The notes beneath the pieces were generated by a model. The model made no database searches. It was not told where the DNA came from and saw nothing but the letters and a program-made list of their open reading frames with translations. A DNA stretch of 64,000 nucleotides from Cycas panzhihuaensis (Eukaryota; Plantae; Cycadophyta). Shown piece after piece: positions 4,257 through 46,954 of the stretch. Location of the stretch: contig CM041465.1 of assembly GCA_023213395.1 (NCBI GenBank), forward strand, positions 208,513,741 to 208,577,740. Reading direction: 5' to 3'. Every line of letters begins with the position of its first letter. Within the stretch, counting starts at the first letter, position 1. Both the position numbers and the translations under genes were made by a program.

Positions 4257-8377
<4,121 letters not shown>

Positions 8378-11300
8378 GTAGCAAAATTCACTCCTCAACA
8401 AAATTGGAGCCAGTCCCTCGATAGTCCTTTAAAGTGTCTCCTGCTTTTTCTTACATGTGGATGCCTTCTCTTCTAAGTGGGACAACCATGGATTTTCCAT
8501 AGCAAGCGGCTGCTTTCTTAGTCTCTCTCCAAATTTTTTTTTCCTAGGAGAAACTAATCCTTGCAAAGATGTTATGTTACATTTTTTTTTTTTGACGGGT
8601 AAAATCCTCATGAAATGGAGTTGACTCTTCAACATAAGGTGCTATAGGATAGGGGGAACTATTCTGCCAAAATCGCCTAGGACTTGCACCTAGCCCCACC
8701 CACTTCAGAGAAATTGACAACACACAACTTCACGCCCTCTAAAAGCATGAGTAGAAACACAAGGCTAAATAACATAATATTAATGCACACAAAGTCTAAA
8801 AATACTAGCACACTAATACATTAAGTCATAGCCATTATGAACTCCATGAAATCTTGTGCAACATATTTGCATGCATGCCCAACGCCGTTAGACATGCCTC
8901 AGATCTTCATTCTCCCTTCCACATGCCACACCACTAGCACCCAATTTTGAAACAATTCATATAACTTAACCACCAAAAACTCTTGAAACTTGTGATTGAT
9001 GCTGTTAACACTTCTGCAGAGCCCAAGTAATGCATAGGCCTTAAAGTGCTGAAAACCATTCTTAATTAACTGCTAGGCAAAAGGAACCATATGCCATGCA
9101 ATGCCCTAACATTGTTCCCTCCTTCATCATTAGATCCATAGCAACACTCCTTGCATTCCCATAATACCCATGTGCATTAAAGATGCCAAAACAATCCAAG
9201 CCATTAACCATTGCTCCATCCTTCCATTAGGAAATAGAGAGATCATAGCTAACGTATAACAAGATGGATGCTCCCCGCCCAACATCTCAACCACATTAAG
9301 CTGTCCAAGGTCACACAACCTAACACTCGCGGCATCCCTTATGTAAACAGACCCCTGAAGCTAACCAACAGCCCAAAATATCTCCTATCGGAATCCACAC
9401 CTACACCTCCAGAGAAGGGCCTAGATCCTCATGTGACCATTGGACTTTGTAAGCTATGCACACACACGAAGACCCCAGCAAAGAAAAAGACCACAATGAT
9501 TCCTGATCTTCTTCAACTCTCCCGATCATTTCTGAGTATTACCCATACCACTAGGAATAACGACCAACCTTGAGATTTTTCTGTCTATTTAGGAACCAAA
9601 CAGGAAACTTGGAATGTTGTGGAATTCCAAAGACGAGACTCGCCATCTCTCTTGTTCAACACTTCGGATTGGTTGCACTTTATCAAGCTTTGTAGGAAAT
9701 AAACCAATAAAATGCTCTGGGTCCTCTATCCATCTAGATATAAACATTGCCTTCAAATGTATAGCCGTAGCTCATCCATCTCACATCGCGTAAAGAGACT
9801 GAATCTGTATTAATGTCGATCAACCAAGATAGGAAAAGTGGATCGCACTCCGTCAAGCCACAGATTTGGTTGCCACGGGAATGCTTCGTTGATGGAAGGA
9901 TCAACTCTTATAGAATCTCCCTTGCAATGGATGGAGACAAAATTGCCAGAGTGTTCTTCGAGCCAAATCCAAGTCGCAAAGACAACCCACATTCTTGCTT
10001 CAACAACAAAAAATAATTTGAGTAATTCGATGCATTGTGGGCCCTTCTGGTGGAAACCTCCTTACGAGTTAGGCAAGTCAATCGACACGACAACCTACGC
10101 TTATTATCATTGGGACAAATAAAAGGGTCGGTTGAATGGCCTACACTTATTATCGTTGAGACAAATAAAATGGTTCGTCGACCCAAACTGGGTCTTGGAT
10201 TGGCCCATCCACCCATTTGCTTAATCACCATCTGCCCTGAAGCCATGAAGGATACGAGAGACTGCCCATTACAGAGCAAGGTCAATAATCCACAAAGGCA
10301 CCACCTCAACACTCCAATCAAGGATATAAGGAGCAGGCAAGGGTCAGGCAACCATACTTGGGACCGACATCATCGAAGACTCATAACCTACAACCCACCA
10401 TACACCTGGCAGCAATTGCCAGAAGTACTCTTAGATTCCACAAGACCCACAACATCCCCATCAAAGAACTCAGCGGCCACCCTAAAGGCAGGTAAAAGCT
10501 CATCAAACTATAGCGTGTAATTGCACTATCCAAAGTTGGTAAACAAGTAGCTACATGCAACTTTGCATCACCATGTTCTATATTCAGCCTCTAATCACAA
10601 CTTTGCCATACATCAACTTTACTCCAGAATTAACCATGTCGTCTAGTTAAGGATTGTAGCTTCTCAGGATGTGGTGGAAATCAATACTTTGGAATCTTTG
10701 AACAAGACCAATTACCTCCTTGTAGTGCACTTTCAAATGTAGTCTTTTAGGCTCGTCTTTTTTTAGCAACTTTAATAACTACTTTGGAGTCGCCCATTAC
10801 TATCAGATGATCCAGGTTGGCATTGGAAGCAATCACCAAGCCTCTAACTAAAGCCATAAATTTTGCTTCATTATTAGTTGTCGAGCCAACCCCTTCTACA
10901 TATTCAATCAACACTTTTTCCTCATCATCACAAATGACTCCCCCAAATGTAGTGCAATCGGGATTATTTTTGGAGTGCCATTAAAGAATGGGTGGTGATG
11001 ATTTTTTTTCCAAATGGGCCAATGTTCGACCTGCTTATTGTTCACCCCCTCACCTTTTTCACTAATTTGCAAAAGGTTCAACATTGTATATTTTTCGATT
11101 ATTGACACCTTCATCTTCTTGATTGCCAAGTGGTAGGCAACAACAACCTCCCTCATAACCTGAATTGAGTGTTGCCAACACCTACCAATTGATCTAGTTT
11201 TCTCAAAGAAAATTGATTCATTTCGAGCTAGCTAGATACACCAACAGATCACTCGAGGAAGAAGGGACCACGCTTTCTAGAGTGTAGAGCCCCTTTTATG

Positions 11301-12635
11301 CGGGCACTTGCTGGCCTAACTAGGGCCAAATAAGTCCAATGTCTAAAGCTCAGAAGCTTGAACCACAAATGTATTCATATTCCTCCTTCCTTCGTTCCAC
11401 ACTGCCTGCAAGTAGGGACACTTCATGAAAAGATGGTCGATGCTTTTAGACTCTATTTTACAAAGCATGCATTTGGAGGGCCCCATAATACCCCTTTTGC
11501 ATAGATTTTCGGAGGTTAATATTGCTCTATGCATAACAAGCCAGACGAAACAATTGATTTTAGGGAGCAATAGAAGACCCTAGGTTTGGTTCCACTTCAT
11601 GGAGGAAGAAGAAGACATTTGTAGGGTCGTCACTCTATAAGCTTCCTTTACAGTGAAAACACCACTCTAAAAGAAAGAAGCCCACATGGTCTCATCCTTA
11701 CCATCACTTATTTTGATTTTACAGTTGGCTACTAACTGCCTAAATAGCACATATTCAGGGTGGAGGGTAAAAGGGAGGTTTGGAAAATCACCTATTTCTT
11801 TGATGACCCAAGAGCTAACTTGGGGGTAATCTCTCTTGAAATACTTGAACACCTCATCAATCTCATGGGACAAGAAGAAAACATTTAGTCTTGCAACAGT
11901 TGTGTTGCAGGTTAGTGGTGGGAACCTGTGTATTGGATTCATCCACATATTGGCCTTTGTCCCATTGTTGATTCTCCGTGACATTCTAGACTAGATCAAA
12001 TCTAGATTGGCGCAAATCTTTTTCCAGATTGGGGATCTTGCTTTGCTTAATGTAGTGATATGGTTCTACTTTTATAGCAGTTTTCCTCAAAAACACAAAT
12101 AATAATCCACAGAAAGGCAATAACTAGATGCTTTCAATAGAAAATTGAACAAGGAATAGAAATTACAGAATCCATAGAAGTAAACAATAATCTTTATTAT
12201 CAAATAATACTAAAAATAGAGTGAAATTACATCAAAATACCAGTCTTTCCTGAAGAAGTGAGCTTCCCTCTTCGAGGCGAGGAACCCTCCAAACTGCAGT
12301 CCCCAAATGGGTGAGCTAATTGCAGCCCTAGAACCGAAAATACGCAGCCAAAAGAACCTTTGACGATGGTTTGGGATGTGGCCCAAACTTCCTATATATA
12401 GTGATCAAAATACTTCAATTAGAAGCCCGCTAGACTGAGTGATATTATCCTTAATACTATTTAAATAGAAGTCGGCTAGAACTTCTCCAAAACTGGCAGG
12501 CTACCTTTAAATGGTCATAACTTTTGTTAGAGATGTTAGAATTGACTCTCATCTGAACTGTTGGAATCCTCGTTCAGAGGCCTTCAATTTGAATGGTTAC
12601 ATGGCATAGTTTTGACTAGATTTTGGAATGCTACA

Positions 12636-14380
12636 ATTCCCCTCCCCTTAAAATAATACTTCGCCCTCGAAGTATTGAGAAATGCTTGTAGCTCGATCTA
12701 ATCTTCCAACCACCTCCTGCTAGATCTTGTAGGTCATAAAGATTTGGTTTGATCTTGTGTCTTCTATGGAGCTTTACTAGCAGGCATCTTGAATTTGCCA
12801 ATGTTTGTTCCTGTGACCAGGTACATGCTGTATCTTGTTTTGCATCAGGAGGATCCTGGGACTTGTGATGTGTCTCAACTGTCTTGTCCCTGTTTTGCCT
12901 TGTGTTTGCACATTTGGTTTTCAAATGAAATGGTTTATAGAAGGTGAAGTGAGGATTTTGTAAAAAGAATTGATCATAAGGGTCATGGACCGGCGATTGC
13001 TTATTGAGAAAAGAAAAAGAAAAGGAGGAATTGTGAATTGAGATCAAGCATAGCTTTGAAGGTATAGGAAGAAAGGATAAATTTTGGAATATGCCCTGGA
13101 TGGGGATGATAATTTGTGTAGGTTTTGTTGGACCACAATCCTTTCTGGGAGAGAAGGATGGATGGGGAATCAACGATAGATGTTCTTTATGAAAAGAAGG
13201 CTTTAATAGGTTTTTAGGAATGATATTTAGACGAAAGAAAAGATTTAACGGAAAAAACAATATTGACGATATGAAATTAAAGGGGTTTAGGAAAGGTCGA
13301 ATGGGGTTTTGTAAGGAGTAATACTAAGAGATGAAACGTGATGAACAGATTGAAGTTGTAGAGTATCCTATTGAGGATGATTTATGGGGGGTGAAAAAGT
13401 ATGTAAATAAAGGGATGAACTAGGGTTACAAAGAGGGATTGGGATTTGACCTACGAAAAAACTAGAGTTAAGGAGATTATGATTATGGCTAAGTACAAGA
13501 TTTGGAAAAGAAAATTTTGCTACAACTACTAAGCGAGGAAAAGAGAGAGGACAAATGATGCTACCAAAAGAGATGTGCATGTGCAACATAGGATTAATGA
13601 GTACCTTGCATGAAGTTTTTTGTGATTCTTCTTCAAAATCAACTTGTTCTTCCTTGTCTTCGTGATGCCCCTGTATAACTTCACTTTGGATTTCTTTTCT
13701 GATATTGACTTGAGATTCTTCTATCTCTCGAGCTTGCTTCAAATCTTCTATGTAGTCATCTTGTTCCCTTTGGATTGGTTCTTGTTTTAGCTCTTGCAAA
13801 ATCTTTGCTTCTTCTCCTTCTACTTACCGCCTTCGTCTGGTTGCTTTGATGCTTTGGTACCCTCACCTTGCTCGTGGGTCTGATGGTCTTTTTGTTGTTG
13901 TCCAAATGTTTTGATAAATGCATGTCAAAACCAAAACCAATCGGTGTATCCTATTGATTGGTTGGACCAATTATTGAACCAATCCGAAGCCTTTTCTCCC
14001 AAGAACAATTCTAAGTCTGCCCAATAATCATCAATTTTTGTACTCCCTGTGAATTGATTTTGAGCTTCAACCCATTCTACCCATTCTCTTGCATCGATGC
14101 CTTCATTGGGCTCAAAAAGGTCAAACATCTTTTTTTGTCTAAAAATACTGCTCTCAACTGTCTTTTTGTCAATAAAGACTGTGACTTCAATGATAAAAAT
14201 CTATATTCTCTGCTAGTTAAAACCATCACATATGACTACTTGCTATGAACGTCTCCTTTGCGAAAGAGCACCTCTTCTTATTTGCAAACAATTGTGCTTT
14301 ATCAAGAATGAGCAGAACTACCTCTATATGTTCCAAGTGTTCCTTGCCCTTTCCCTTCAAAACGAAACTCTAATACCACT
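12636..14380 (-). pseudogene. Second internal domain of the composite: decayed Gag-like fragment, Glu-rich and Phe/Pro-rich segments, gypsy-type 3' end
   Basis: ORF 13925-14128 (DAREWVEWVE..LELFLGEKASDWF) resembles a Gag capsid N-terminus; ORF 13368-13799 begins E/Q-rich; the end TTCGAGGGCGAAG..AAGGGGAGGGGAAT parallels the FEGKACFEGEG terminus of the first unit. Confidence 0.6.
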
Positions 14381-14802
14381 TGTAGCGATCTAGTTCTACT
14401 TTTACAACAATTTTCAAAAATAGAGAAAAATTACAACAAAATACCAATCTTTCTTAAAGAAGTGAGCTTCCCTCTTCAAGGCGAGGAACTCTCCAAACTG
14501 TAGCCCCCAAATGGGCGAGCTAATTGCAACCCTAGAACTAAAACTGTGCAACCAAAAGAACCTCCAAATGATGGTTTGGGATGCGGCCCAAACTTCCTAT
14601 ATATAGTGATCAAAATACTTTAATTAGAAGTCGTCCAGACTGGGTGACATTATCCTTAATACTGCTCAAATAGAAGTCAGCTAGAACTTCTCCAAAAACT
14701 GGCAGGCTAACTTTAAACGATCATAACTTTTGATGCAGATGTCAGAATTGACTTTCGTCTAAACCGTTGGAATCCTTGTTTAGAGGCCTTCGATTTGAAT
14801 GG

Positions 14803-16728
14803 TTACATGGCATAGTTTTGACTAGAGTTTTGGAGTGTTATAAGTCCCTCTCCTTCAAAACATGCTTTGCCCTCAAAGCATTGGTAAGGGCCTATTTTTC
14901 TACATCTATTCTTCAAACTCCTACGTTGCATCTTTATCTCCAATGTCTTCCATTTGATGAGATATTCTTTCACTATCTTGGATTGCAAATTCTTGTCCCT
15001 AGTCTTCAACATTCCCTCAGGTTCCACTATCATCATTCCTTCTTCATCTAGTGTTGGTAAATTCGTTTGTGGAGTCTCCCCTTCGCCTAACTTTTTCTTT
15101 AAACAAGACACATGGAAGATATTGCGGATTTTGCTTTTTGGTGGCAATTTTAACTGATCTATTACGTGTTCCAATTCCCTTTTCGGTGGCACTCCTTGGG
15201 GTTCTTCAAAAATTCCTTGATGTTCTTCTAAGATTGCCTGAATATCTAGAGGAATGTTTTTTATTTCTAGTTTGTAACATGACATTATGTACGCTTGTGG
15301 ATTCTTCTTTAGAATCTGTTCCATTCTGTGAGATGATATAAGCTGAACTGCAGGTGTGGCTGGGGCTTGCAGTTGATATTTGCGTCCTTTTTGTCGGAAA
15401 CACATAAATCTTGTCCTATAATTGGTAATGATGTTCCGTAGCGTTTGTAGCCATTGAATTCCCATAACTATGTCTACTCTGCCTATGGGCATAGCAAACA
15501 TACAAGTTGTGACCTTGTAATCGTTGACCTGGAGAGTTGTGTCTTTGCAGTATCCTCCACACAACGTTGTTCTCCCATGTGCTATTGACACCTGGAATGT
15601 GTTGAGGGGTTTCACTTGTAATCTCGTTTTTTCTGTCGATGCCTTGTTTATAAAATTTTGTGTACTCCCACTATCTACCAAGATTGATACTGGTCTCCTC
15701 TTGATTTGTCCTTGGAATCTTAGGGTTTGCAGGGATACTTGTTGCCCTGTAATGCCTTGCAAGGGTATTTGGACATTCCTTGTATCCACTTCGAGAAGTT
15801 CATCTGCCTCCCTTCCTACGCTTTGGTCTTCTACTTCTTCCTGTGCTGCTTCTGGTATTTCTACATCGTCATTATTGATCATGAAAACCTTCTTTGCTAG
15901 GCACCAGTGTTCCTTATTCCATTTCCCTCCACACTTGAAGCACATCCCTTTCTTTATGTTCTCCTCTTTTGTTGTTCCTGAGCTTCCTATCGTATTTCTT
16001 ATAGCTAATGGGGGGTTTTCTTTTGTTCCAAATTTGGCCCCATTAAGATTTTGGGTCTGATATGCTAGTGGCCCATATTTCCTTGTATATGTCGGTCTAC
16101 TATCTCTAAGTTCTGCCTCCACATTCCTTGCTATTTGAATTGCTACTTGGAGTTGTGGTGAATCTGCTGTTTTAACTCTAAATTTGATTTGATTTTTCAA
16201 TCCACTAATATAAGTCTCTAGTAAACATTCTTGTGGTGTCTTTTCTGAGACCATACATTGTAGTGTTTGGAACTGTTCTGTGTACTCTTGGATTATTCCT
16301 TCTTGATGTACTCGTGTTAACTGAGCATAGTAATCTGTATTCCAAGAATCGTCATATTGCTCTACTAATCTTGCTCTTAGATTCTCCCAGGTCTGTTGCA
16401 TTGGTAAGTTCATCTTTTTCCACCAGTAGCACCACCTTAATGCCCTTCCGTTTAAGTGTAAGGATGCTATTTCCATCTTTTCCTTAGATGTGGAGTTATA
16501 GACCTTGAAATAGTTTTCCATTTGTAAGACCCAATTAGTGATATTCTTAGATACTTCTGGATCAAAATTTTCCAAAGATAATTCTGCCCCTTTCCATCCA
16601 TTATCCATGTTGGGAGTTCTCCTTTCGTAAGCTCGTCCATCGAATCTCTTGGTCTCATTTCCTTGATTTTCTTGATCCATCTGATCTATCCCTGATGTAG
16701 TGTTATTATCCATTTCTCTACCTAACAC
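14803..16728 (-). CDS. Gag + aspartic protease fused in frame to integrase C-terminus/chromodomain; RT, RNase H and integrase core absent
   Basis: 641-aa open frame: Gag (ASLHLNGRALRW..LETYISGLK), CFKCGGKWNKEHWC knuckle-like motif, protease ILVDSGSTQNFI..DIVMGIQWL, then ..KRELEHVID|QLKLPPKSKIRNIFHVSCLKK..EPEGML..KEYLIKWK. Confidence 0.88.
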   Translation of the reverse strand: MLGREMDNNTTSGIDQMDQENQGNETKRFDGRAYERRTPNMDNGWKGAELSLENFDPEVSKNITNWVLQMENYFKVYNSTSKEKMEIASLHLNGRALRWCYWWKKMNLPMQQTWENLRARLVEQYDDSWNTDYYAQLTRVHQEGIIQEYTEQFQTLQCMVSEKTPQECLLETYISGLKNQIKFRVKTADSPQLQVAIQIARNVEAELRDSRPTYTRKYGPLAYQTQNLNGAKFGTKENPPLAIRNTIGSSGTTKEENIKKGMCFKCGGKWNKEHWCLAKKVFMINNDDVEIPEAAQEEVEDQSVGREADELLEVDTRNVQIPLQGITGQQVSLQTLRFQGQIKRRPVSILVDSGSTQNFINKASTEKTRLQVKPLNTFQVSIAHGRTTLCGGYCKDTTLQVNDYKVTTCMFAMPIGRVDIVMGIQWLQTLRNIITNYRTRFMCFRQKGRKYQLQAPATPAVQLISSHRMEQILKKNPQAYIMSCYKLEIKNIPLDIQAILEEHQGIFEEPQGVPPKRELEHVIDQLKLPPKSKIRNIFHVSCLKKKLGEGETPQTNLPTLDEEGMMIVEPEGMLKTRDKNLQSKIVKEYLIKWKTLEIKMQRRSLKNRCRKIGPYQCFEGKACFEGEGLITLQNSSQNYAM

Positions 16729-19700
16729 ATTTTGTGTTGCTTGATCCGCTTTTGCTAGTAACTTCTAGATTAGGATTGTTAGAGCCCTTATGCTCTGGTT
16801 TAATTCTGATGCGCCTTCAATTTTTTCCTCTGAGGTTCTAGATTGGGTTGCCATCTTCTTGTGAATGAGCTTTTTCCTTAACCTCAATTCTGTTTCTGCT
16901 TCCCTTGGGGGGAAATTTTGACCTTTCTGAGCTTTTACCTCTGCTGTTTCCCCTTGAAATGAAGCTTTGATACCACTTGTAGCGATCTGGTTCTACTTTT
17001 ATAGCAATTTTCCTCAAAAACACAGATAATAATCCATAGAAAGGCAATAACTATATGCTTTCGATAGAAAAATGAACAAGGAATAGAAATTACAGAATCC
17101 ACAAAAGTAAATAATAATCTTTACTATCAAATAATACTAAAAATAGAATGAAATTAGATCAAAATACCAGTCTTTCCTGAAGAAGTGAGCTTCCCTCTTC
17201 GAGGCGAGGAACCCCTTCAAATTGTAGCCCCAAATGGGTGAGCTAATTGTAGCCCTAGAACCAAAAATACGCAGCCAAAAGAACCTCCGACGATGGTTTG
17301 GGATGCAGCCCAAACTTCCTATATATAGTGATCAAAATACTTCAATTAGAAGTCGGCTAGACTGGGTGATATTATTCTTAATACTGCTTAAACAGAAGTC
17401 AGCTAGAACTTCTCCAAAACTGGCAAGCTACCTTTACATGGTCATAACTTTTGTTAGAGATGTCAGAATTGACTCTCATCTAAACTGTTGGAATCCTCGT
17501 TCAGAGGCCTTCAATTTGAATGGTTACATGGCATAGTTTTGACTAGATTTTGGAATGCTACACTTAACCTGGAGCATGGATTTAGGATAGCCTGACCCAT
17601 ACCCCCCAACTACATATGTGTCATAATTTTGCCAACCAAGGAGGCTTAGTAAGCATCCTCCATAATATTTTGGCTCTAGTGACCTAGGCCACCCATAACA
17701 CAGGCCTGAGACCAAGACCTCCCATATCCTTAGGTTTACAAACCTCTTATGACTTAACTAGGTGGAACTTTCTGCATTTTGGGTTGCGGGCTCCTTTCCA
17801 AACAAAATCTCTTATTTGCTTGTATAATAGGTTTAATATTAGAGTAGGCATGTGGCAGAGAGCCAACATATACGTTGGAATGGACCCTAAGATTGCCTTT
17901 ACCAGGACCACTCTCCTTGTTAGGGATAGCCATCTTAAGGACCAAGACTTCATCCTAGCATTGATTTTGTCAACAATGCCTATCCACTAGGGCACCCCTT
18001 GTTTGTGACCAATTGGTGCCCCAAGGTAGGTGAGGAATTGTTTATCTTCAAAAAGTTGGAATTCCAGATGGGAATTTAGTTTGCAAGGGGGGTAGTTGAA
18101 AGGCATAACTTTTGATTTCCTAGTATTGATCTTGGCTCTAGCCACTACGCAAAAGGAATCCAAGATTTTCTTGATAAATTTTGCTTCACCAATTGACATG
18201 TCTCTAAAGAGTAGAGCATCATCAACAAATTGAGAGTGGGTAATGTGGTCCAGTCTTGAAGTCACTGCAACCCTGTGTAGTGTTCCATTTCTTCAAGCTT
18301 CAAATAGAGTCCAGTTGAGAGCCTTTGCCATAATCACAAAGAGGGTAGGAGATAAGGGGCATCCTTGTCTAATCCCTCTTGATGCATTGAAGAATTTGGT
18401 TGGGGTGCCATTGATGATAATTGCAAACAATGTAGTATTGATACACACTCTAACCCACCTCATCCAGATCTTATCAAACCCCATCTTGTCCATAATCCTC
18501 ATAAGAAAATCCCAGTTGAGTCCATTGTATACATTCGCAAAGTCAAGCTTGATCATCGTCATCCTCCTTCTGGAATTGACCACCAAGTGAATGACCTCTT
18601 GAGCCATGATCACTTGGTCAATGATTAGCCTCCCTTTTACTCTACCACCATGTCTAATTGAGATCAACAATGGTATGATTTCCTCGAGCTTGGTAGCCAT
18701 GAATTTCATGACAATTTTGTATGAAAAGTTACACAACGAGACAGGGTCTAAACCTATTGATAGTGGAAGTTCCCTTGTCCTTTGGGATGAGGGTAAGCAA
18801 GTTGGAGTTTAAAGCTTTCAACATTTGCCCAGACTTCCTTGATTCCTCTAACATCTGGAGAAGGTCGTACTTAATACTGTGCCAAGTTGTCTGGTAGAAA
18901 TTTGCTTGGAGCCCATAAGGCCCTAGAGATTTGTTAGGCTGCAATGCAAATACAGTCATCCACACTTTGTCCATGGTCGCTTCTTTAATTAATCTGGAGT
19001 TCAACTCTCTGGTGACCATTTTAGGAATGGCTTTGGCCATCTCAAGTTGGGCATTTTCTCTATATAAATGGTCTTCTGAGAATAAAGTGGCAAAATGTTC
19101 TTTGGATGTAGTCTTAATTTATTCTTGGGAACTGACGATTTGGCCTGTATCAAGCTTTAGTTCGGCTATCCTATTCTCCATCTGACGAGTAGAGATGGCT
19201 TTGTGGAAGATTCAGGAGTTGGTATCCCCTTGCTTGACCCACAACATTCAAGATCTAAGCCTTGGAAGGGCATCTTGGTCCTTCTCAATGGTTTCCAATT
19301 TGTTCAACAAGGCTCCTTCTTCTCTCTTAACTTTTGAAGAATCGTATCTGATGCTTACCTTCTCATTAAGAGTGTTGATCTCTCTTTTCATTTGTTGGAC
19401 TCTGAGTTGGCCTCATTCATCACTCATCATTGCCATTGTTTCAAATTGTTTTTGATTTGCTTCAGCTTGTAGTGGAAGACAAACATTTTCGTACTCGTGT
19501 GCTAGGCTTCTGCCCACTACTTCTCAATCAAAGGCATAGATTCATTATAGTTCATTAATACTGGGTTGAATTTGAATGTGATTTTTTTTACGGGTGTGCA
19601 TGCCTAATAACTTAAGGAGAATGGGAGCATGGCCTGATTTGCTCCTAGGAAGAATTGTGGATTCAACTTCAATGACATCCAAAAGTGGTTCAAAGATTAG

Positions 19701-22700
19701 AAACTTGTCAAGCCTTTCCATGATTCGTGAAGCTCCCACTCTTCTATTGGATTGTGCAAAAACTCCATTTGTAGGCTCAACATCTATCAATCTTCTATCT
19801 TCTATAAGATCTAGAACCATCTCTGCCTGTTTGCTTAGGTAGAATTGGCCTCCTTGCTTCTAATTCAGATGCAACACCACGTTTAGATCACTTCCTATGA
19901 TCTAGTTTTGAACATTTCTATCCTTGCCATCCCACCATACATTTGCCCAACACTCTTGACCTAACTGGAAGTGGTTAGGTCCATACATGTTTGTGAAGTC
20001 AATATCCATGTTGCAATTTGCTACATGGATTTTGGTCCTAACCCAGTCTCTTCCTTTAGTTGTTTCCACTATCTTGAGGGTCTATTGTTCCATAATGTAA
20101 TTAATCCACCTGACTGATCCCTTGCACCAATGCTCGCACACGAGTATGAATTACCAATCCACTTGAGAAGCCTACTTTCAACTTCAACTTTAGAAATTTT
20201 TGTTTCCTGAAGAAAGAGAACATCAAGTCTCTAGTCTTTGATGTGGCCTTTTAGGGTTCATTTAGTCAAGGACGAACCCAACCCCCTTATGTTCTAAGAG
20301 ACTATGTTCATTTTTGACTAGGCTGGAAAGGACCATTTCTGGATTTTGACTCGCCTTTGGATGTACTAGGGTTTTCACTCTAGTGGACATCATTGATTTG
20401 CTTACCATGTTGATAGTCCTTGGGTTGTTTCCCATGCAAGAATTAGGTCATCTAGGCTTGAGATTTGCATGCAACCTCCTATATGTTGCATACTTATTAA
20501 TTCATCTCTCAAATAATTTCTCTAGGCTTAGTACTAGAGGTGTCACCTCAAGCATTCTCCACTAACCATGGCAACTTATATTTGCTTGATCTACTCAGAT
20601 ACCATATTGAAGTCAGAGTTTACCACTAAGAACTACAAGAAAGATTTGCAAGTAGAATTAGTCTACCTCATCAATCAATTATTTTTCATTAATACTCAAC
20701 TCATCTTTGTACAATAGTTGATACAAAAAAATAACTATACAAATAGACTCACATGTCAACTAATTAAATGCAAAAGAGGGGGGTTTCATGCCATTAAGTT
20801 ATAAGCCTAAACAATAAATATTAATAATTTAATATGTGGCCTCTTCTTCCTCCTACATCCTTGGACTCTCTACTTGCTTCTTGGCCTTCTATTTGACTCA
20901 ACCTCATGGAAGTGTGAGTGTCACTTAGTAGAACCAATCCACAATTTGTCGTTATGATGCTGCTACTTGTCCCTTAATGTCTAATGATATGACATCATGT
21001 GGGAACAATTTCATCCACTCCTATAATGTTGACACATTTGATTGGATTTCCATCATGGGTGATTTTGCAACTAGTCACTATAGGAGAAACGAAGAAGGGT
21101 GCTGAAATATTTGTTTCCTTTCTTGAATTTCCTAGACTTATTGTTTGATCAACAATGTTAGGTTGAGTGCTTCTCCTTATAGTACTTGTTGTAGAACTGA
21201 AACCTTCCTAGTTGGATAATAAGTGTACTTCTTCTTCCCTACAAATTTCATCACTACGACCTTTGCAAACAATTTTAATTGCAAGTTCATAACACTATCA
21301 ATCCTAATACCTTTGGAAAATAATGGTGTGCGAGGCACACAAATTACTTGAGATATCACAACATGGTCAATTTCCCCCTTTTTGTCACCATATGGATTGT
21401 CACCTTTCTTAGGCAGCCTAGTCAATCTCCATAACATGTCTATTGATATTTCTATCAGGTACTATTTTGGGCTACCTATCTTATGATTTCCTTCATTAAA
21501 TTTTATCCCAATATAGTGACATTAATTGGATAAACTTACTCCTTTTTGCCCTAATCAACATGCGTTTGAACTCATCTATGGCCTCCTATACAATCTTAAG
21601 AGTGGGTACATAGGTCTCCTAAATGGTCATCCCTTAGAGTTCTTGTGTTCAGTAATTGACATTCTAACTTTTATAATGTTGTAGCAGGAATGGTAATAGG
21701 AACTCTAAAATTGTGCCATGGAACATTGGAACTATGGTTTGGAATGCTAGAGCTATGCTTTAGAACACTAAAATTGTACTTTGGAATGCTAAACATCATT
21801 CAAGGTCACTATGGAATGCTAGGATGTTGCTAGAACATTGAACTACTAGGGTAGAATGCTAAGATGCTTGAATCTTGTTGAATTTCCCATTGAAAATGCT
21901 TGAAAGATACGGCCCTAACTTCGTATTTTTGGAATGGTCTTTAGAATGCAATTGTTGTGTTCTTGAATGATTGGCTTTTCTCGTTGTGCTTTGGAATGAT
22001 TATGAGAATGCTAACATTGCAAATGGTGACTCTCATGTTGGAAAGATGGTTGGAATGGTGGTTTTCTCACTAGAATGATGGCTTAATGTGGGATAGCAAT
22101 TGCTTTCCACTATTTGTTAAGGCAGCTTACATGATTATTTCACATGTCATTTATTTGTAAGATTGAGTTATGGTTAGTTTATACATTTTTATTTTTTATT
22201 TTCTTGTTTATGTATCAAGTAGTCTTGATGATATGACAACTTTTGTTGTCCTCAAAACATTCTTAGTAATGGTGGTTACCTTATGAACCAATTATAGCAC
22301 ACATAACATTCACTTGTGTTGGGAAAATACCCCTATCTTAGTCGTGGTAGGGTATCAATTTGTTGCAAATACCATTTTGGGCAGCAATTGGCCTATTGAC
22401 TCCCTTAGCTAGACAAAGCCATTTTTATAAATCTCTTTAATCATGTAGGGTCCTTTCCAATGCATTTTTTACTTTTCCTAGCATGTTCAAAGTCTACTAT
22501 CATACAATGATACTAGGTCCCTTTTTAAAAACATGTTGTTTTGCTTTGACAATCATGCAATGTCTTTTTTTATTTTTTTTATGGTTTGCTTTGCGCATTT
22601 GCTTTTGTTGCCTTTTAATTGATCTCTCGACCTTTTAATCGATCTCTCAATTTGCTACTATGATGTGTAAGATTGTAGTTAATAACACATACTTCATTCT

Positions 22701-24282
22701 CTTTATGACTTTTATCATCCTTAGAGTGACTTCCATCAAAGTCATCATAAGCATCACAATATTTGTCTTTACATTGATTTGCTTTTATGTTTTCTCCTAG
22801 ATTAACATTATTATGCCATTTCTCCTTATCTGTGATGCTATGAAAGGCCTCAACACTAGTTATGCTTATGTATTCATCCCTATCATCCTCATGATAATGT
22901 TCTTTTGAGCTTTGACAATTACCTATACTCTTCAAACTCCTTACTATGGTTAATATCATGGATAGTTCTCATATTATAACAACTAACATTAGGTTCATTT
23001 GCTTTGTATGCTCCTTGCAAACAATTGCTTAAGTATGTATTTGTATCACCTCCCTTAGAGTTCAAATATGGATGGAGCTCTCCAAAGCGGTTTAGCCCTG
23101 CTTATAGGGATTATTCATTATCATTGCCTCTTCCACACAATAGCGTGCGGTTGCCTTGACATATGAATTGGAAGCTTATTCATTAGCGATGATAATGAAT
23201 GATACCTTGGTTGGTATCTTTTCAATTATTGTCAACATTGGTAATGTCATGGATTTTCCATTATGAGCAAGAGTGAAGGTTTTCTTCTTCTAGTTTTGTG
23301 GGCTTTTTCTATCATATAACTAGGGTCATCCCAACAGTGCAATATAGGATGCTCTTCCTTCCACCATTTTGATAATAGTTAACTTGAGGCTCACCACTAT
23401 GATAGGTCTTAGTTTTAAGTAACATTGTAAAAAGGTACTTAAGTGTACCCCATTTCTTTACATTATAAAAGTTACTTAGGGGAACCTAATTAATAATTAG
23501 GTACATAGGTGACATGCATACAAACTAACTCAAGTTTGTATAAAAATGTGTAATGCTGAAAGGAAGAAATGAAGAAAAGAAAGTGACATTCTCTCTCTCC
23601 TCTCTTGAGGCTTCATTCAGGCTCTGTTTCTTTCTTGAAAAACACTCTCAGACCTGAAGAATTTCTCATTTTTGTGAATAATCTGTGTCTAAACTAAGGA
23701 GGGTTGAGACCAAAATCATATCAATTGGTATTAGAGCTAGTTGGTCTCTTGGAAGGAGACTTCGGAACAATTTTCCGGACCTTGCAGAGGCGTACGGACA
23801 CCGTACGGACTTGTACGAATATGAAAAAAAGTGCTCGGATTTCGATGAAATTTTACCAAAAGGAGCGCAAGAGCGCGTACATCAAACTTCTCTACAGGAT
23901 CAAAGTCCAAATCTCATTCAAAATTGGAGAAAAAAACAAAAATTAAAGGGGGCGGGTTTGAAGCTTCAAAGGCAGATTTCTTCAAAAATACTTAGGCAAA
24001 TCTCTCCAAACTGCCCATGAAATCTTTGTTATAAACAGATCTATCCATCAAGTATAGATTCATAGCATAAAATTTCTTCATTTTTGTAAAATGAACAAAA
24101 ATAACTTTCAAAACCTAGTCGCAAAAATTGATTCAGCAGTGAATAACTCCACAAATAAAGATCTGATTCCAAAATGGATTGTAGATTCTTAAAGGTGCCT
24201 CAAATACCTTTCTTTTGAGACCCACTTTGATTTTGGTCGTACAAATTCCGTCTGACCCGTATAGTTAATCTGGTCCAGTACA

Positions 24283-24412
24283 TGGGTTGAATTTTGTCAT
24301 TTTTTTAAGTTCTTCTGCAATTTCTCCATCAATGTATAGATATATATATATATATCTATACATTGATGGAGAAATTGCAGAAGAACTTAAAAAAATGACA
24401 AAATTCAACCCA
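24283..24412. repeat. Perfect 130-bp palindrome with (AT)8 centre and no spacer, with imperfect flanking arms
   Basis: The sequence 24283-24412 equals its own reverse complement; looser complementarity extends from about 24257 to 24439. Confidence 0.97.
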
Positions 24413-24488
24413 GATGTACGGATCCATACAACTGTACGGTTGTATGGCATATATATACACACGTTGTTAAAAAAAAAAAAAAAAGCCA

Positions 24489-24713
24489 AAAGCCCTCTCT
24501 GCAGGCATGCACATTTCATTAAGTTTTCTCTTGGGCATATTGCCATAAGCCCTTTTCACAGGTAGGCGTATCCCATTCACATTGCTCTTTTCATAAGATC
24601 TCCTCTTGGGGCATATTCCCATAAGCCCTTCTTCTACAGGCAGGCGTACCCCCATACAAATACAATTGTTCGGGCATATTGTTGTAAGCCCTTCTTAAAG
24701 GCAGGCGTGCCCC
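24489..24713 (+). repeat. Three full and one partial ~45-bp GC-rich direct repeats with unique spacers, directly before the gag ATG
   Basis: Core GGGCATATT..TAAGCCCTT..AGGYAGGCGT.YCCC at 24531-24574, 24606-24653 and 24669-24713; partial copy at 24489-24512. Confidence 0.85.
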
Positions 24714-24722
24714 GCTCCAATC

Positions 24723-27700
24723 ATGTCTCCTGATCAAGAAGATCAATCACATTTTGACCTCACAGAACTCTTAACAAAAGAGCTTCAAGAACAGCATCAA
24801 GATGCACAAACCTTTCAACAAAATTTAGTTTCCAGCATGATGACAATGTTTCAACAAATATTGCATCAACAAAGTATTCCAACAGCCATTCTGATTCAAC
24901 CAACTCCGTTCAAGTTGGACGCTAAAATTAGTATCCCACTTTTTGAAGGTACAATGGATGCTAACAAATTAGATGCATGGCTTCGAAGTCTAGAAGCCTA
25001 TTTCAAAACACAACAACTCACGGAGGCACAAAAAATAATGGTTGTTGAAGTGCATATGGCGGAACAAGCATTAACATGGTGGCAGTCATACTCCCATGAT
25101 AAACCATTTATTTCATGGGTAGAGTTCAAAAATGTTGTCCACAGTCGATTTTATCCCTTGGGATATGTCGATGGACTCACTACACGTTGGCTTCATCTCC
25201 GCCAAGTTGCAGGCCAAACAGTTCAGCAATATATTGATGAGTTTGTTAAGCTTTCTATATGGTTAGAAATTTTTGATTCTGACCACATTCTCAAGCTAAA
25301 GTTTATTGGTGGACTCTTTTCATCCTTACAGCGTGAAATGGAACTTCTTCAGATTTCTACGCTTGAAGCAGCTTATCAATTTACTCTCAAAATTGAAAAT
25401 AAGCTATAACAAAGACCACAACCACCTTCATCGAGGACATTTGTACGTCGAACAAATAATACGAAGAATTATTGTTCTTTCTACAAAAGTCAAGGCCATA
25501 CAGATGCAGAATGTCAAGAACAGCAAAAACCTCATACCTTGGTCACAAAAAACCAGGCTTCGACTGAATCCATTGACATCATAGAGGTACCCAACCTATA
25601 GGCTCCTGATCCTCATCTTGTGTTAATGACTACTGAATATTCTGCTTCTCAGAGAGAAAAACTTTTCACACAGAAATGCCAAATTAAAAATCGCTTGGTT
25701 CTCTATATCATTGATAATGGAAGTATGAAGAACTTGATTTCTGAAGAACTTGATTTCTCAATCGATATTGGATTCTTTACAATTAGTAACCAAGCCACAC
25801 CCTAAGCCATATACTCTTGGATGGGTAAAAAAGGATGGCCAAACAACCGTGGTCGATAAAATGTGTACTGTTACTTTCGCTATTCCACCATTTACGGATC
25901 TTGATTGTGATGTCACTCTTATGGACTGCAGCGACATACTCTTGGGACGACCCTATTAGCATGATCGACGAGCATTATATGATGGGTATCACAATACCTA
26001 TACACTACATAAGAATGGAAAGGCATATAGGTTCTCTTCTGCAGACAATGTTTCTCCATCTTTGGCCATCATTACAGGGAATCCTGCAGTCAAACTTGCC
26101 AACACCTCTAGGCCAAAGACGCTTTGTGTAATTCATCAGGCAACAAAAGAAAATTGTACAAAGATGCCTCCTAAAGCAATAAAATCTCTTTTGGATGCGT
26201 ACTCTAATGTTTTTGCAGAACCTAAGGGGTTACCTCCCATCTGTGTTGTGCAACATTCTATTAATCTTGTTCTTGGATCTCCACTTCCTAATCAGGCTCC
26301 TTATCGCACGACTCCACTTACTCGTGCAGAATTGGAAAAACAACTAACACAGTTGATTGATGAAGGTAAAATTCAACCTAACTGTTCTCCTTGTGGTTCA
26401 CCTGCCATTCTCATTCCAAAGAAAGACAAAGAATGGCGTTTATGCATTGATTACTGGGCCTTAAACAAAATTACTGTTAAAACTCGATATTTGTTGCCAC
26501 ACATTGATGACTTATTAGATCATCTTAAAGGAGCCACATATTTTACAAAATTTGATTTGGCTTTTGGGTAACATCAAGTTTGGGTCAACGCTCAGGATAC
26601 GTGGAAAACAACTTTCAAGACTCAAAATGGCCTGTATGAATGGTTTGTCATGCCCTTCGGTTTGACTAATGCTCCTACAACTTTTATGCGACTCATCAAT
26701 GATATCTTTTGGCCTCACTTAGGTAAATTTGCCATTGCCTACCTTGATGATATCTTGGTCTACAACAGCAATTTGGATGACCATCTGCAACATGTTAATA
26801 CCGTTTTGGCTTTGTTGCGACAACATCAACTCAAAGCCAAATTCAAAAAATGTTTCTTCGCGTAGGACTCCATCTCTTATCTAGGGTTTCTCATCGACAA
26901 GGACGACATCCATGTCGATCCAGATAAAATATGAATAATCCAGCAAAGGCCAACTCCTTCCACTTTAACCGAGCTCAAAAGTTTTCTTGGTTCTGTCAAC
27001 ATTTATTGAAAATTTATTTCTCACTTTTCTAGCATTGCTCATCCTCTTAATGTCCTTACCAAAAATTCCTCAAGTTTAATTTGGAACTCCTCTGCTGAAT
27101 CAACTTTTCAAAAACTTAAGGTAGCCCTCTGTACTGCACCTGTTCTTCATGTTCCCGATCTCTCACAACCTTTTAAACTAGAAACTGATGCTTCTCAATA
27201 TGCCCTTGGCGCAGTTCTTAAGCAGGGAGGACATCCTATTGCTTACCATTCTAAAACCTTCTCTCACGCCATAATTACAGTACTTACGACAAAGAATTTT
27301 ATGCTCTTGTCCAAGCCCTGCGACACGGGAGACACTTCCTCCTTGGCAATGAAACCATTGTTCATATTGATCACTAGCCCTTACAGTTTCTTAACTCTCA
27401 ATCCAAAATCCAAGAACATAGACATCTTAAATGGGCTTCTTATATCCAACAATTCCAGCTTGTCATTAAATACAAAAAAGAAGCTTCCAATAGAGTCGCT
27501 AATTTCCTCAGTCGACCTCCTGCCTTATCCTTAGCCACCTTTCTCACTTCCTCCTTCAATCCATATTCTGACTGGCAACATCTGCTTCCCTCTGACCCCT
27601 ACTTTGGTCCAGTCCTTACTGCCTTATCTCAACCAACCCAATCAGATCTTGAACCCTTCATGGATTACCATCTCAAAAATGGACTTTTGTACAAACTAAA

Positions 27701-29005
27701 TCGTTTGTGTGTACCAGCAGGCACTCCACAACAACAGATCCTTAAGGAGGTTCATTCTTCAACTTGTGGAGGACACTTCGGCACGCATAAAACTCTTCAT
27801 CATCTTCAACGATATTTTTATTGGCCTTCTATGTCAAAGACAATTGAAGATTATGTATGACGTTGCTCTCTCTGCAGTCAATCTAAACCATCTAATCGCA
27901 AACTTGGACTTTATCAACCACTTCCTGTTCTTAGCCAACCTTGGGAATCTATTTCAATGGACTTCGCCAGCGGACTTCCTACAACTTAGCATGGTCACGA
28001 CTGCATCTTCATCGTTGTTTGTCAGTTCTCCAAAATGGCTATTTTCATTCCTTGCACCAAGAACATTTCTGCTTCCCATGCTGCAGATTTATTTTTTAAG
28101 CATATTTGGACTCATTATGGACTTCCTCTTTCCATAATCTCTGACAGGGATAGTCATTTCCTTAGTTATTTTTGGAAAGCTCTATGAAAAATGCTCTGTT
28201 GCCAACTTGAGTATTCAACATCATTCCATCCTCAGACTGATGGACAAACATAAGTGGTTAACCGCACTTTGGTACATGCACTTCGCATTTATCAGCATAG
28301 TAATAAACAATGGGATACACATCTCCATCATATCCAACATAACTCTAATTGGACAAATCACGTTTCTCTTGGACGATCTCCTTTTGAAGTCTATTATGGT
28401 TATCGACCACTTGCTCCTTATGAACTTTCACTAGTTGTACCTTCTCCTATCACAGAACATGAACAAAAAGAACAACAAAAAGTTGTTTCTTTTATTGATC
28501 ACATGACTAAGCTTCACTCTAAGATCAATTAGATTCTTCATCAGACACAAATCAAATATAAATGCGTCCAGGATCAACACTACTCTACAGGTACTTTTGA
28601 ATTGGTGATAAGGTTGGCTCCACCTTGATCGTAAAGGGTTTAAGAATCACCATAAGCTTAAAGCTATTCAGTTTGGCTCATATACTATTCTCAAGGCAAT
28701 TGGACCAAATGCATTTTGCCTTGATCTACCTGCACATTTGGGAATTCATGACATGGTTAATGTCAATCAATTAAAATTATATGAGCCACCACATTTGGAA
28801 GCTGAACCTCTTCCTATTCATCCTATTGACACAATTCTAGATTTCCAGCCTCTTCTTTTTGAAGACACCATTCTTGACATTAGACAATGTTGTATGTGAC
28901 AACATACTACGACCACATATCTCCTTGGACGTAAAGGAACTCTACCCACCAATGCTAAATGGATTTATGTGTCAAGACTCCAAGAGCACTTTCCTCATCT
29001 CTAAC
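24723..29005 (+). pseudogene. Disrupted gag-pol of the CRM-like element
   Basis: Gag 24723-25409; PR IIDNGS..DILLGRP; RT WRLCIDY, MPFGLTNAP, YLDD (26062-26865); RNase H ETDASQYALGAVL; integrase HHCC region GGHFGTHKT; C-terminal YLLGRKG..AKW motif. Multiple stops and frameshifts. Confidence 0.9.
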
Positions 29006-30243
29006 AAAAATTGGGGTCAATTTCTTCTTAAGTAGGGAGGAAATGATAGGTCTTAGTTTTAAGTAACATTGTAAAAAGGTACATAAGTGTACCCCATTTC
29101 TTTACATTATAAAAGTTACTTAGGGGAACCTAGTTAATAATTAGGTACATAGGTGACAAGTATACAAACTAACTCAAGTTTGTATAAAAGGAAGAAATGA
29201 AGAAAAGAAAGTGACATTCTCTCTCTCCTCTCCTGAGGCTTCATTCAAGCTCTGTTTCTTTCTTGAAAAACACTCTTAGACTTGAAGAATTTCTCATTTT
29301 TGTGAACAATTTGTGTCTAAACTAAGGAGGGCTAAGACCAAAATCATATCACACTATGCTAGCCATATTGGCCTTTAAATTGGGTACTAGGCCTAAGGGT
29401 GTGATCCTCAATTGATTTCCTAATTTGATGGAGTAGGTTGTAGCAACCATTTCAGGGCAACTAGCTTCAAGTATGTTTAGGCAAGACGGTCACCATCGAT
29501 TTGCTATCCATGATCGTTGCCTTGACTATTTCTCCTGGTATTGTCATAGTTACCTTGGGGTCCTCATCTAGTAATGACAAGAGTTCATTAACATTTTGGA
29601 CATCACATCAAACCATTTTATAACCTTTATGAGTGGAATTGTAAGCTTGAGTTGCTTTGCCTAGTGTTTAAGCAGCTTAAATGTTTTTGGGATCAATTCA
29701 TTACTTGGGAGTGAAGCAAATGGAATTCCTTAGTACTCTAGCTCTTATGGCCTCTCCTTTGGTGATGGGCTTGGCAAAATCTTTGTTAAGTTGCTCCTAG
29801 GAGATCCCCTTCTTCTATAAACTTTAATTGTAGATCTAGGCATGGTTGAACGATTTCCATCTATCTTTTTAGCAGTTATTTCTAGAGCTTTCTTTGTTGC
29901 AATGAATTGGTTCATTGCCACCTTAGGGTTTGGATAGTCAAACTCATCAACTTTAGCCTCCCCCCTTGGTCTATTGCATGTTTGTAGGTTTAAGGGCCTT
30001 GTGGTCCTCAAATCATTTGGCACTATTATTGCTAGATTGCTAGTTTTGATGTTGTTGGAATAGTTTTTTGAATCATGATTGCTAGGACCATATTTCTAGC
30101 ACATGTGAGCACTCTTGTTAGTGCTTCCTCATAAAGACATTTGGATCTCTAGTGACCAAATTCTAGGCAAAACATGCATCTACCAGTTGGTTTCTTCTTC
30201 TTTGGTGGATCATGGGCCACCTTTGTTGAATAGGAGGGTGAAG

Positions 30244-46500: not shown

Positions 46501-46954
46501 ACTCGATCTGATAGGGAAAGAAAAAAAATTCTGGACTTTTGGGCAGCCTCCCACGATCGCGACGCAGCTCTGATACCACTTGGGACGTTTCTTCTCGCCA
46601 ATACTCTTGAGATAGTAGAGAATTTGACAATCGCAACAACGTCTTCTTATCCAACAGAGCAAACAAGCTAACCAAGAGTTTCACAGGAACACTAGAGCGC
46701 TAAATGATCACCAAAAGATAGAAAGTATCTAAAGACAATCTTTATAAAAATGTTCTATCAAGATAACCATCATTTACAATTTATGACCCTTATATAGATA
46801 AAATAGGGTCTTATACATGTAATCCTATTGGTGGCCTAAACGGCCTTACATTCTATTGGACAGCAGCGCCCATGCATACTATTGGCCCGCTAGACGGCAC
46901 ATGCACAAAGTTCCATAGTGGCTTACACAACTTAGCCGGATAAGTTATGTAACA
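40600..46954 (-). mobile_element. Full-length Reina-like chromovirus (Ty3/gypsy)
   Basis: 374-bp LTRs 40600-40973 and 46581-46954 (about 15 differences by eye); perfect PBS TGGTATCAGAGC 46567-46578; PPT 40974-40988; TSD AATTG at 40595-40599 and 46955-46959. Confidence 0.95.
40985..45492 (-). pseudogene. gag-pol of the Reina-like element, broken by several stops and frameshifts
   Basis: Gag (44515-45492), PR ILIDDGASLNFI, RT FRLCVDYRALN and FFNDIL, RNase H ECDASGFGLGAVL, integrase VVIDRLTKYAHF..YHPQTDGQSE, chromodomain KYLIQWTG..EATWES. Confidence 0.92.

What the first reader, a model, noticed from the sequence alone, without database searches (positions are those of the whole stretch)
12051..17562. 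Three-LTR composite retroelement that inserted as one unit; the middle LTR lacks the putative poly(A) segment
Seen: the layout is LTR-PBS-unitA-PPT-LTR-PBS-unitB-PPT-LTR under one TSD (CTTAA). Units A and B are different sequences. The outer LTRs are both 585 bp and share diagnostic bases, while the middle LTR is more diverged and 123 bp shorter. The missing segment (about 12086-12210 in the 3' LTR) contains minus-strand AATAAA at 12193-12198, downstream of the TATA-like box near 12395. Inference: loss of termination in the middle LTR allowed read-through, so two non-autonomous elements are now copied as one RNA, with only the outer LTRs re-homogenised each cycle. This suggests a stable two-partner element in which A supplies Gag-PR and B rides along.
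Basis: partly seen in the sequence, partly recalled or inferred. Interest (0 to 1): 0.78.

Follow-up and report, generated by a model that had tools for sequence, protein, structure and literature searches.

The report
Two retrotransposons fused in one insertion
Two different defective jumping genes of a plant, sharing one type of end repeat, sit fused in a single old insertion, likely because the copying enzyme jumped between their two RNAs once; such fusions are already described in plants, and a self-propagating two-partner element is not supported here.

Summary
The anatomy is real. On the minus strand lie three LTRs (585, 462, 585 bp) around two unrelated internal units, each with PBS and PPT, under one TSD (CTTAA), inside a LINE. 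The outer LTRs differ by 6%, the middle by 12-13%, and the outer pair share an allele rare in the family: one insertion event fits. This matches the published 'complex' or tandem LTR-retrotransposon insertions. The stable two-partner idea is not supported. In four other genomes' contigs A and B are both abundant, while the middle LTR's deletion junction carries at most 2-5% of the depth beside it. The middle U3 is a common family type, not a decayed copy. The one listed contig crossing that junction runs into non-PBS sequence. The deleted piece plausibly holds a poly(A) signal, but exact AATAAA is in only one outer LTR and no RNA data test it. Best reading: a rare template switch between co-packaged A and B RNAs (0.5); read-through of a young tandem (0.27) cannot be told apart from one copy. 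The scan's index showed no earlier finding of this structure. New member of a known kind; interest 0.27.

The parts
12046..12050 (.). Target-site duplication, left copy (CTTAA)
   Evidence: chance about 0.001-0.002
12051..12635 (-). 3' LTR, 585 bp, TG...CA ends
12086..12211 (-). Segment of the outer LTRs absent from the middle LTR (126-bp gap); U-rich, probable R/U5 region (inferred)
12193..12198 (-). AATAAA, candidate near-upstream poly(A) element; AGTAAA in the 5' LTR
12391..12401 (-). TATA-like box, invariant in all three LTRs (also at 14596 and 17318)
12636..12650 (-). Polypurine tract of unit B
12636..14380 (-). Unit B: non-autonomous internal region, unrelated to A, abundant in other genomes
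13925..14200 (-). Weakly Gag-like open frame of B (91 aa)
   Evidence: 4.6 bits on a profile of A's homologues, 0 of 1000 shuffles as high; no Pfam hit; library and atlas searches gave nothing firm
14229..14342 (-). Short RT-like scrap just behind B's PBS
   Evidence: tblastx E 0.001 to RT regions of two other Ty3 elements of the window
14364..14378 (-). PBS of unit B (iMet type; label recalled)
14381..14842 (-). Middle LTR, 462 bp; begins TA instead of TG on the element strand; deletion junction at 14415/14416
14843..14858 (-). Polypurine tract of unit A
14803..16764 (-). Unit A frame, 653 codons stop to stop: Gag, aspartic protease, linker, then at about 15160 a jump to the integrase C-terminal SH3 and a chromodomain-like tail; RT, RNase H and integrase core absent; a stop at 16765-16767 separates it from the probable start and the tail shifts frame
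   Evidence: Pfam; tblastn; tail 51% identical to the integrase tail of the Ty3 element at about 40600-46950
16961..16975 (-). PBS of unit A (iMet type; label recalled)
16978..17562 (-). 5' LTR, 585 bp, TG...CA ends
17563..17567 (.). Target-site duplication, right copy (CTTAA)
11343..12045 (-). Host site, downstream half: degenerate LINE ORF2 with zf-RVT
   Evidence: Pfam zf-RVT E 1e-17
17568..18292 (-). Host site, upstream half: degenerate LINE ORF2 with end of RT
   Evidence: Pfam RVT_1 E 0.002 (below curated cut-off)

Best explanation
This is a three-LTR Ty3/gypsy insertion made of two different non-autonomous elements under one target-site duplication, likely formed once when reverse transcriptase switched between two co-packaged RNAs, and likely not a self-propagating two-partner family. 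Shown: the anatomy, the TSD, the LINE order on both sides, the likeness of the outer LTRs, the abundance of A and B, the rarity of the short junction. Inferred steps: (1) A and B belong to a modular group of defective elements that share one LTR family and borrow RT and integrase from an autonomous element. (2) One A RNA and one B RNA were packaged together. (3) Minus-strand DNA primed on A jumped to the 3' R of B, copied B through its 5' end, then jumped at R to the 3' end of A. (4) The product has two identical outer LTRs (U3 of B's parent, U5 of A's parent) and a middle LTR made of the other halves (U3 of A's parent, short U5 of B's parent), so the middle differs along its whole length from the day of insertion. 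(5) Integrase inserted it into a LINE, and all three LTRs then decayed.
For: All four diagnostic marks of Sabot and Schulman's template-switching complexes are met: internal LTR, two cores, TSD, similar outer LTRs (PMC1950507, whole text). The middle LTR differs from the outer pair in every part: 10-12% in U3, 10-12% from TATA to the gap, 9-17% in the last 35 bp, against 5-9% between the outer LTRs, with diagnostic sites within 2 and 12 bp of the two termini. About 25 of the 38 differences predate insertion if the middle decayed like the outer ones (38 minus about 12.5; inference). Both outer LTRs carry C at 12548 and 17475 where more than 96% of laid depth reads the middle LTR's T in all 4 runs. 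The middle U3 bin draws 373k summed depth against 243k and 114k for the outer bins: it is a common family type. Depth falls to 1.7-4.7% of the adjacent bin across the middle LTR's junction in 4 of 4 runs, and the loose ends there read the long form. Other recombinants exist: an A-to-B joint (15300 to 13611) in 2 of 4 runs and other 155-156 bp deletions from the same LTR position in 3 of 4 runs. Conifers show low unequal recombination (PMC5751070, passages), which lowers the prior for a recombination-made tandem if it holds for this host.
Against: Read-through of a pre-existing tandem gives the same structure, and Yin et al. favour that route for pear Cassandra (PMC4079214, passages). The predicted U3/U5 swap could not be tested: no genome is held and contigs were too short to link U3 with U5 type. 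Sabot and Schulman found switching complexes rare (2 against 20 recombinant complexes) and between close family members. Summed contig depth is not a copy number, only 46-52% of the deep runs was read, and the two layings used different likeness thresholds (85 and 92). The A-to-B joint could also be a deletion product of a composite. The junction bin still allows some tens of copies.
Confidence: 0.5

Rival explanations
1. A young tandem arose first in the genome by recombination between an A and a B element; a read-through RNA from the first to the third LTR, helped by a weak or deleted terminator in the middle LTR, was then copied once or a few times.
For: Gives the same TSD, outer-LTR likeness and uniformly divergent middle LTR. 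Proposed for pear Cassandra (PMC4079214) and, with a weak terminator, for rice tandems (PMC11899658). The deleted piece holds a plant-like UGUA...AAUAAA layout in the 3' LTR. The RNA would be only about 5 kb. Short LTRs at terminal places could be daughters started from the middle LTR.
Against: No parent tandem seen (no genome). The middle LTR keeps the UGUA and an A-rich hexamer at similar spacing; exact AAUAAA marks only 7-10% of plant poly(A) sites (PMC2396415). Low unequal recombination in conifers.
Confidence: 0.27
2. One reading: a stable, multi-copy two-partner element. The middle LTR lost its terminator and drifts; only the outer LTRs are renewed each cycle; A supplies Gag-PR and B rides along.
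For: The middle LTR is twice as diverged, has lost its terminal TG and lacks the candidate poly(A) segment. The junction bin depth (268-597) leaves room for a small subfamily. An A-to-B joint exists in 2 of 4 runs.
Against: The short junction carries at most 0.5-1.3% of peak LTR-end depth and 1.7-4.7% of the adjacent bin, while B's interior carries thousands. 1 of 32 listed pieces crosses the junction, and it runs into non-PBS sequence (only 22 letters on one side, short of the tool's 31-letter rule). The middle U3 is nearer the family's bulk than the outer U3s. A's frame is interrupted here and both units lack RT and integrase.
Confidence: 0.1
3. An ordinary element was already in place with its TSD and LTR pair; a cDNA of the other unit was later added by integrase-independent recombination at an LTR or PBS.
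For: Keeps the TSD and the likeness of the outer LTRs. Shown for Tf1 into Tf2 in fission yeast, with hybrid tandems in wild isolates (PMC11042837, passages).
Against: It predicts a crossover inside an LTR. Outer-versus-middle differences run to within 2 and 12 bp of the termini and no outer LTR has a middle-type tract, so both exchanges would have to fall at the extreme ends or in the PBS leader.
Confidence: 0.1
4. Assembly artefact: an A and a B element from different places were joined through their LTRs.
For: No contig spanning the whole structure was available.
Against: A mis-join would not give matching TSDs, LINE domains in order on both sides, a shared rare allele in the outer LTRs and a 12% divergent, shorter middle LTR.
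Confidence: 0.03

Closest known systems
Template-switching complex insertions (Angela, Squiq, Opie; Sabot and Schulman 2007, PMC1950507, whole text read)
   Same: Third LTR shared by two cores, flanking 5-bp TSD, outer LTRs more alike than the middle one.
   Different: Here the cores are unrelated non-autonomous units, the middle LTR is a rare short variant, and the host is probably a gymnosperm.
Tandem LTR-RT structures of rice, Arabidopsis, almond, cotton (Morales-Diaz et al. 2025, PMC11899658, parts 1-4 of 6 read: all main text)
   Same: Alternating LTRs and internal regions under one TSD; gypsy bias; read-through from a weak terminator is named there as one possible route.
   Different: Their two described loci have internal regions 94-99% identical; A and B here are unrelated.
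Three-LTR Cassandra TRIMs of pear (Yin et al. 2014, PMC4079214, passages)
   Different: TRIM cores are about 70 bp, non-coding and alike; here about 2.1 and 1.7 kb with coding remnants.
Modular non-autonomous families and chimeric tandem copies of sugar beet (PMC13570524, passages)
   Same: 97 tandem copies, 65 with three LTRs, 73 with TSD; reshuffling of LTRs and cores between families; families keeping Gag/protease plus integrase or chromodomain remnants, like unit A.
   Different: No terminator-less middle LTR or stable two-unit composite appears in the passages read.
Tf1-Tf2 hybrid tandems of fission yeast (PMC11042837, passages)
   Same: [quoted passage not shown]
   Different: Made by Rad52-dependent recombination with crossovers inside the elements; no such tract is seen in these LTRs.

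Membership tests
Template-switching complex (Sabot and Schulman 2007) | An internal LTR between two cores, each with PBS and PPT | tested here: met
   the cores are structurally whole but not coding-complete
Template-switching complex (Sabot and Schulman 2007) | TSD around the whole structure | tested here: met
   CTTAA
Template-switching complex (Sabot and Schulman 2007) | Outer LTRs more alike than either is to the middle | tested here: met
   0.063 against 0.121 and 0.130
Template-switching complex (Sabot and Schulman 2007) | LTRs are chimeras of the two parents' U3 and U5 | not testable with these tools
   No genome held; contigs too short to link U3 and U5 types
Recombinant complex between two adjacent insertions (as described in PMC1950507) | No flanking TSD; outer LTRs from independent insertions | tested here: not met
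   TSD present, outer pair share 38 sites against the middle and a rare allele
Tandem LTR-RT (Morales-Diaz et al. 2025) | Three related LTRs alternating with LTR-RT internal sequence | tested here: met
Tandem LTR-RT (Morales-Diaz et al. 2025) | Highly similar repeated internal regions, as in TLI1 and TLI2 | tested here: not met
   A against B: best internal blastn E 0.13
Gag/protease non-autonomous elements (TR-GAG-like; second group of PMC13570524) | Unit A keeps Gag and protease and lacks RT, RNase H and integrase core | tested here: met
   an integrase C-terminal remnant remains
Ty3/gypsy chromovirus branch | Chromodomain at the integrase C-terminus | tested here: inconclusive
   Pfam finds only SH3_Tf2-1 (E 0.0004); the tail is 51% identical to a neighbouring Ty3 integrase tail; chromodomain likeness is recalled, no RT for a tree
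   Short junction rare (at most 1.7-4.7% of adjacent depth); a large family is unlikely, a small one is not excluded
   Only DNA contigs were laid

The most novel reading that the evidence does not exclude
A lineage of two-unit retroelements is copied as one RNA because its middle LTR has lost the terminator; it sheds daughters (short-LTR B elements from the middle promoter, A-to-B deletion chimeras) and so acts as an intermediate in the modular evolution of non-autonomous families in a giant plant genome.
Probability: 0.1. Interest if true: 0.6.

Novelty: new member of a known kind. Interest (0 to 1): 0.27.

Why it matters
As read here it is a clean example of a known rare event, useful because the two parents are so unlike that each LTR half could be traced to its parent in a full assembly. 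That would decide between template switching and read-through, which Sabot and Schulman, Yin et al. and Morales-Diaz et al. leave open. It also shows that unrelated defective elements sharing one LTR family recombine in this genome. If the composite proved to be a multi-copy lineage with a terminator-less middle LTR, it would be a unit of retrotransposition not found in my searches.

Tried and rejected
No whole genome is held, so no copy census or LTR tree. An exact 22-nt LTR motif found 0 stretches in metagenome contigs. No other copy of A, B or the LTR lies in the window, apart from a 90-bp 76% match at 32367-32456. The idea that the 126-bp segment is an internal duplication in the long LTR failed (367 of 500 shuffles scored as high). 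Mutation context did not separate middle-specific from private changes (20 of 36 at CG/CHG against 8 of 12 and 5 of 16). Identity of B's 91-aa frame: 2 library hits, both spurious repeat proteins with no tblastn match to the window; atlas hits unnamed or under 0.9. The loose end joining an outer-like LTR end to A's tail (run X7, 6 contigs) was set aside as proof of stand-alone A, because the middle LTR's end alleles may be private decay. End-to-end ligation of two cDNAs with later collapse was rejected: it would make the outer LTRs differ. A solo LTR nested in one element was rejected: the middle LTR has a PPT before and a PBS after it and no TSD of its own. The element at about 40600-46950 looked like a second three-LTR case (PBS-like letters beside its 3' LTR) but has its own TSD AATTG and no third LTR. 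Clade assignment was not attempted, as RT is missing.
Full report
Observation. The layout is as reported, on the minus strand: 5' LTR 16978-17562, PBS, unit A, PPT, middle LTR 14381-14842, PBS, unit B, PPT, 3' LTR 12051-12635. CTTAA flanks the whole structure; a chance match has probability about 0.001-0.002. The site lies in a degenerate LINE ORF2: the end of RT is on the upstream side (RVT_1, E 0.002, below cut-off) and zf-RVT on the downstream side (E 1e-17), both on the minus strand and in the expected order, and one frame on each flank reads the TSD in the same phase (flanks translated separately). K2P distances are 0.063 between the outer LTRs and 0.130 and 0.121 to the middle one. Of 454 three-way sites, 38 join the outer pair against the middle, while 14 and 11 are private to one outer LTR (binomial P 1e-5). 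The differences are spread over U3, the TATA-to-gap part and the last 35 bp and reach within 2 and 12 bp of the termini. The middle LTR lacks 126 bp (12086-12211), is net 123 bp shorter and begins TA instead of TG.

The two units. A encodes Gag and an aspartic protease (Pfam E about 2e-9 each). Homologues align up to about 15160-15184 and stop where RT would begin; the frame goes on directly into the integrase C-terminal SH3 and a tail 51% identical to the integrase tail of another Ty3 element in the window. RT, RNase H and integrase core are absent. A stop at 16765-16767 interrupts the frame near its probable start and the tail shifts frame. The 48 homologues found were 24-37% identical over their best alignments; named ones come from pine and angiosperms. 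B is unrelated to A in DNA. It holds an RT-like scrap behind its PBS (E 0.001) and a 91-aa frame that scores 4.6 bits on the Gag part of a profile of A's homologues, above all 1000 shuffles (697 were scored, best 4.1). No library confirmed that frame. Both units are non-autonomous. The host is a plant with very large chromosomes, probably a gymnosperm; the label cycad comes from an earlier scan note and was not tested.

The poly(A) idea. In the 3' LTR a UGUA is followed 33 nt later by AAUAAA in a U-rich tract, the order of plant far- and near-upstream elements (PMC2396415, passages); an exact AATAAA arises in 3.3% of shuffles of the segment. This is plausible. Against it as proof: the 5' LTR reads AGTAAA and has lost that UGUA; the middle LTR keeps the UGUA and has GUAAAA about 30 nt later; exact AAUAAA marks only 7-10% of plant sites. 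No RNA data test it.

Is it a family? No genome is held, so I laid contigs of public DNA runs. Summed contig depth is a rough measure, not a copy number, and 46-52% of each deep run was read. At 85% likeness (4 runs) A's bins carry 16,000-59,000 and B's 4,400-22,000 in the three deep runs, against 200-490 at a LINE flank position: both are abundant. At 92% likeness over 14356-14460 (4 runs, 1741 contigs laid) depth is 5,700-36,000 at 14412-14415 and drops to 268-597 at 14416-14419, that is 1.7-4.7% of the adjacent bin and 0.5-1.3% of the peak. Part of that remainder is long-LTR pieces starting at 14415-14417, and the loose ends at the junction read the long form. Of 32 listed pieces (1712 not shown), 1 crosses the junction: run X5, 14380-14437, 2 differences, depth 6.9, with 28 further letters that do not fit the PBS. 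That suggests the short form at a terminal or solo place elsewhere, but it has only 22 letters on one side, under the tool's 31-letter rule, so it is a weak sign, and such a copy could also descend from a composite. The middle U3 bin draws 373k summed depth against 243k and 114k for the roughly matching outer bins, and at 12548 and 17475 both outer LTRs carry an allele that more than 96% of laid depth lacks. So the outer pair came from one template and the middle U3 is an ordinary, common family type, not a long-decayed relic. One search also shows other LTR deletions of 155-156 bp from the same position (3 of 4 runs), an A-to-B joint from 15300 to 13611 (2 of 4 runs, depth 30-35), and depth in B roughly doubling left of about 13645 in all 4 runs. 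The picture is a modular set of defective elements that share an LTR and recombine. A small composite subfamily of some tens of copies is not excluded, because the junction bin is an upper bound well above single-copy depth and short contigs rarely link PBS to junction.

Mechanism. Shown: one TSD, LINE order kept, outer LTRs from one template, middle LTR different end to end. Inferred: co-packaging of an A and a B RNA and two inter-molecular jumps at R, giving outer LTRs of U3(B parent)+U5(A parent) and a middle LTR of U3(A parent)+short U5(B parent). This explains the middle LTR's divergence without many cycles; about 25 of the 38 differences would predate insertion. It also fits the middle U3 being the commoner type, since A is the commoner unit. 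Read-through of a young recombination-made tandem gives the same product and cannot be separated with one copy (0.27). Later addition of a cDNA by recombination needs exchanges at the extreme LTR ends (0.10). The stable composite lacks its predicted abundance and decayed middle (0.10). An assembly join is unlikely (0.03).

Comparison with what is known. Sabot and Schulman (PMC1950507, whole text) define complexes with an internal LTR, two cores, a TSD and similar outer LTRs, all met here; the chimeric origin of the LTRs could not be tested. Morales-Diaz et al. (PMC11899658, parts 1-4 of 6) find tandems common in plants and name a weak terminator as one route. Yin et al. (PMC4079214, passages) count 182 three-LTR Cassandra copies with TSD and propose recombination followed by RNA-mediated transposition. 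The sugar beet survey (PMC13570524, passages) reports 97 tandem copies, reshuffling between families and Gag/protease families with integrase remnants. A pine paper expects such chimeras in conifers (PMC7602945, passages). Also read as passages: PMC7215508, PMC11042837, PMC5751070. No supplements were opened; lists of tandem copies there may hold closer cases with unlike cores. Searches gave no paper on a multi-copy composite of unlike units with a terminator-less middle LTR. The scan's index returned no earlier finding of this structure.

Verdict. Real, one insertion, a new member of a known kind. What is mildly unusual is that the two cores are unrelated, which makes the locus a good test case for telling template switching from read-through once a full assembly is surveyed. 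Interest 0.27; the bold reading has probability 0.1 and would deserve 0.6.

Noticed in passing
window 12638 to 16976 (joint, table 5c, run X3, depth 47.8): A contig joins an LTR end directly to an LTR start with about 6 letters between, matching the few bases that lie beyond each LTR end on the PPT and PBS sides. It looks like a two-LTR circle or head-to-tail cDNA junction held at more than single-copy depth in DNA.
   Followed up: no
window 15300 to 13611 (table 5c, runs X1 and X3): A joint with 11 letters between links A's Gag-protease part to B's 3' half with no LTR between; B's depth roughly doubles left of about 13645. A third, chimeric A/B family is likely.
   Followed up: partly
window 14842 (loose ends, 4 of 4 runs, 58-86 contigs each): A's PPT and tail are often joined to an LTR start that differs from this LTR family after the first bases, so the tail seems shared with another LTR family, perhaps the autonomous partner.
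   Followed up: no
window 17012-17170 (table 5): Other copies of the LTR lack 155-156 bp from the same start point as the middle LTR's gap (3 of 4 runs, depth up to 218): this position is a recurrent deletion point.
   Followed up: partly
window 14229-14342: A 37-codon RT-like scrap lies directly behind B's PBS, upstream of its Gag-like frame; one run shows a 114-bp skip next to it (14132 to 14247).
   Followed up: partly
window 24283-24412: A perfect palindrome with 69-nt arms around a TA run, inside the 5' part of the LTR element at 23399-29351.
   Followed up: no
window about 40600-46950: A Ty3/gypsy element with 95% identical LTRs and TSD AATTG, nested in the integrase of an older Ty3 element.
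   Followed up: partly
window 4257-8377, 23399-29351, 34722-38789, 52677-62479: Four more LTR pairs (84, 91, 87 and 80% identical); the first is flanked by GTAGC on both sides and the second by CACT(A).
   Followed up: no
window 32367-32456: A 90-bp stretch 76% like the U3 of this LTR family, in the opposite orientation; perhaps a conserved LTR motif of a distant family.
   Followed up: no
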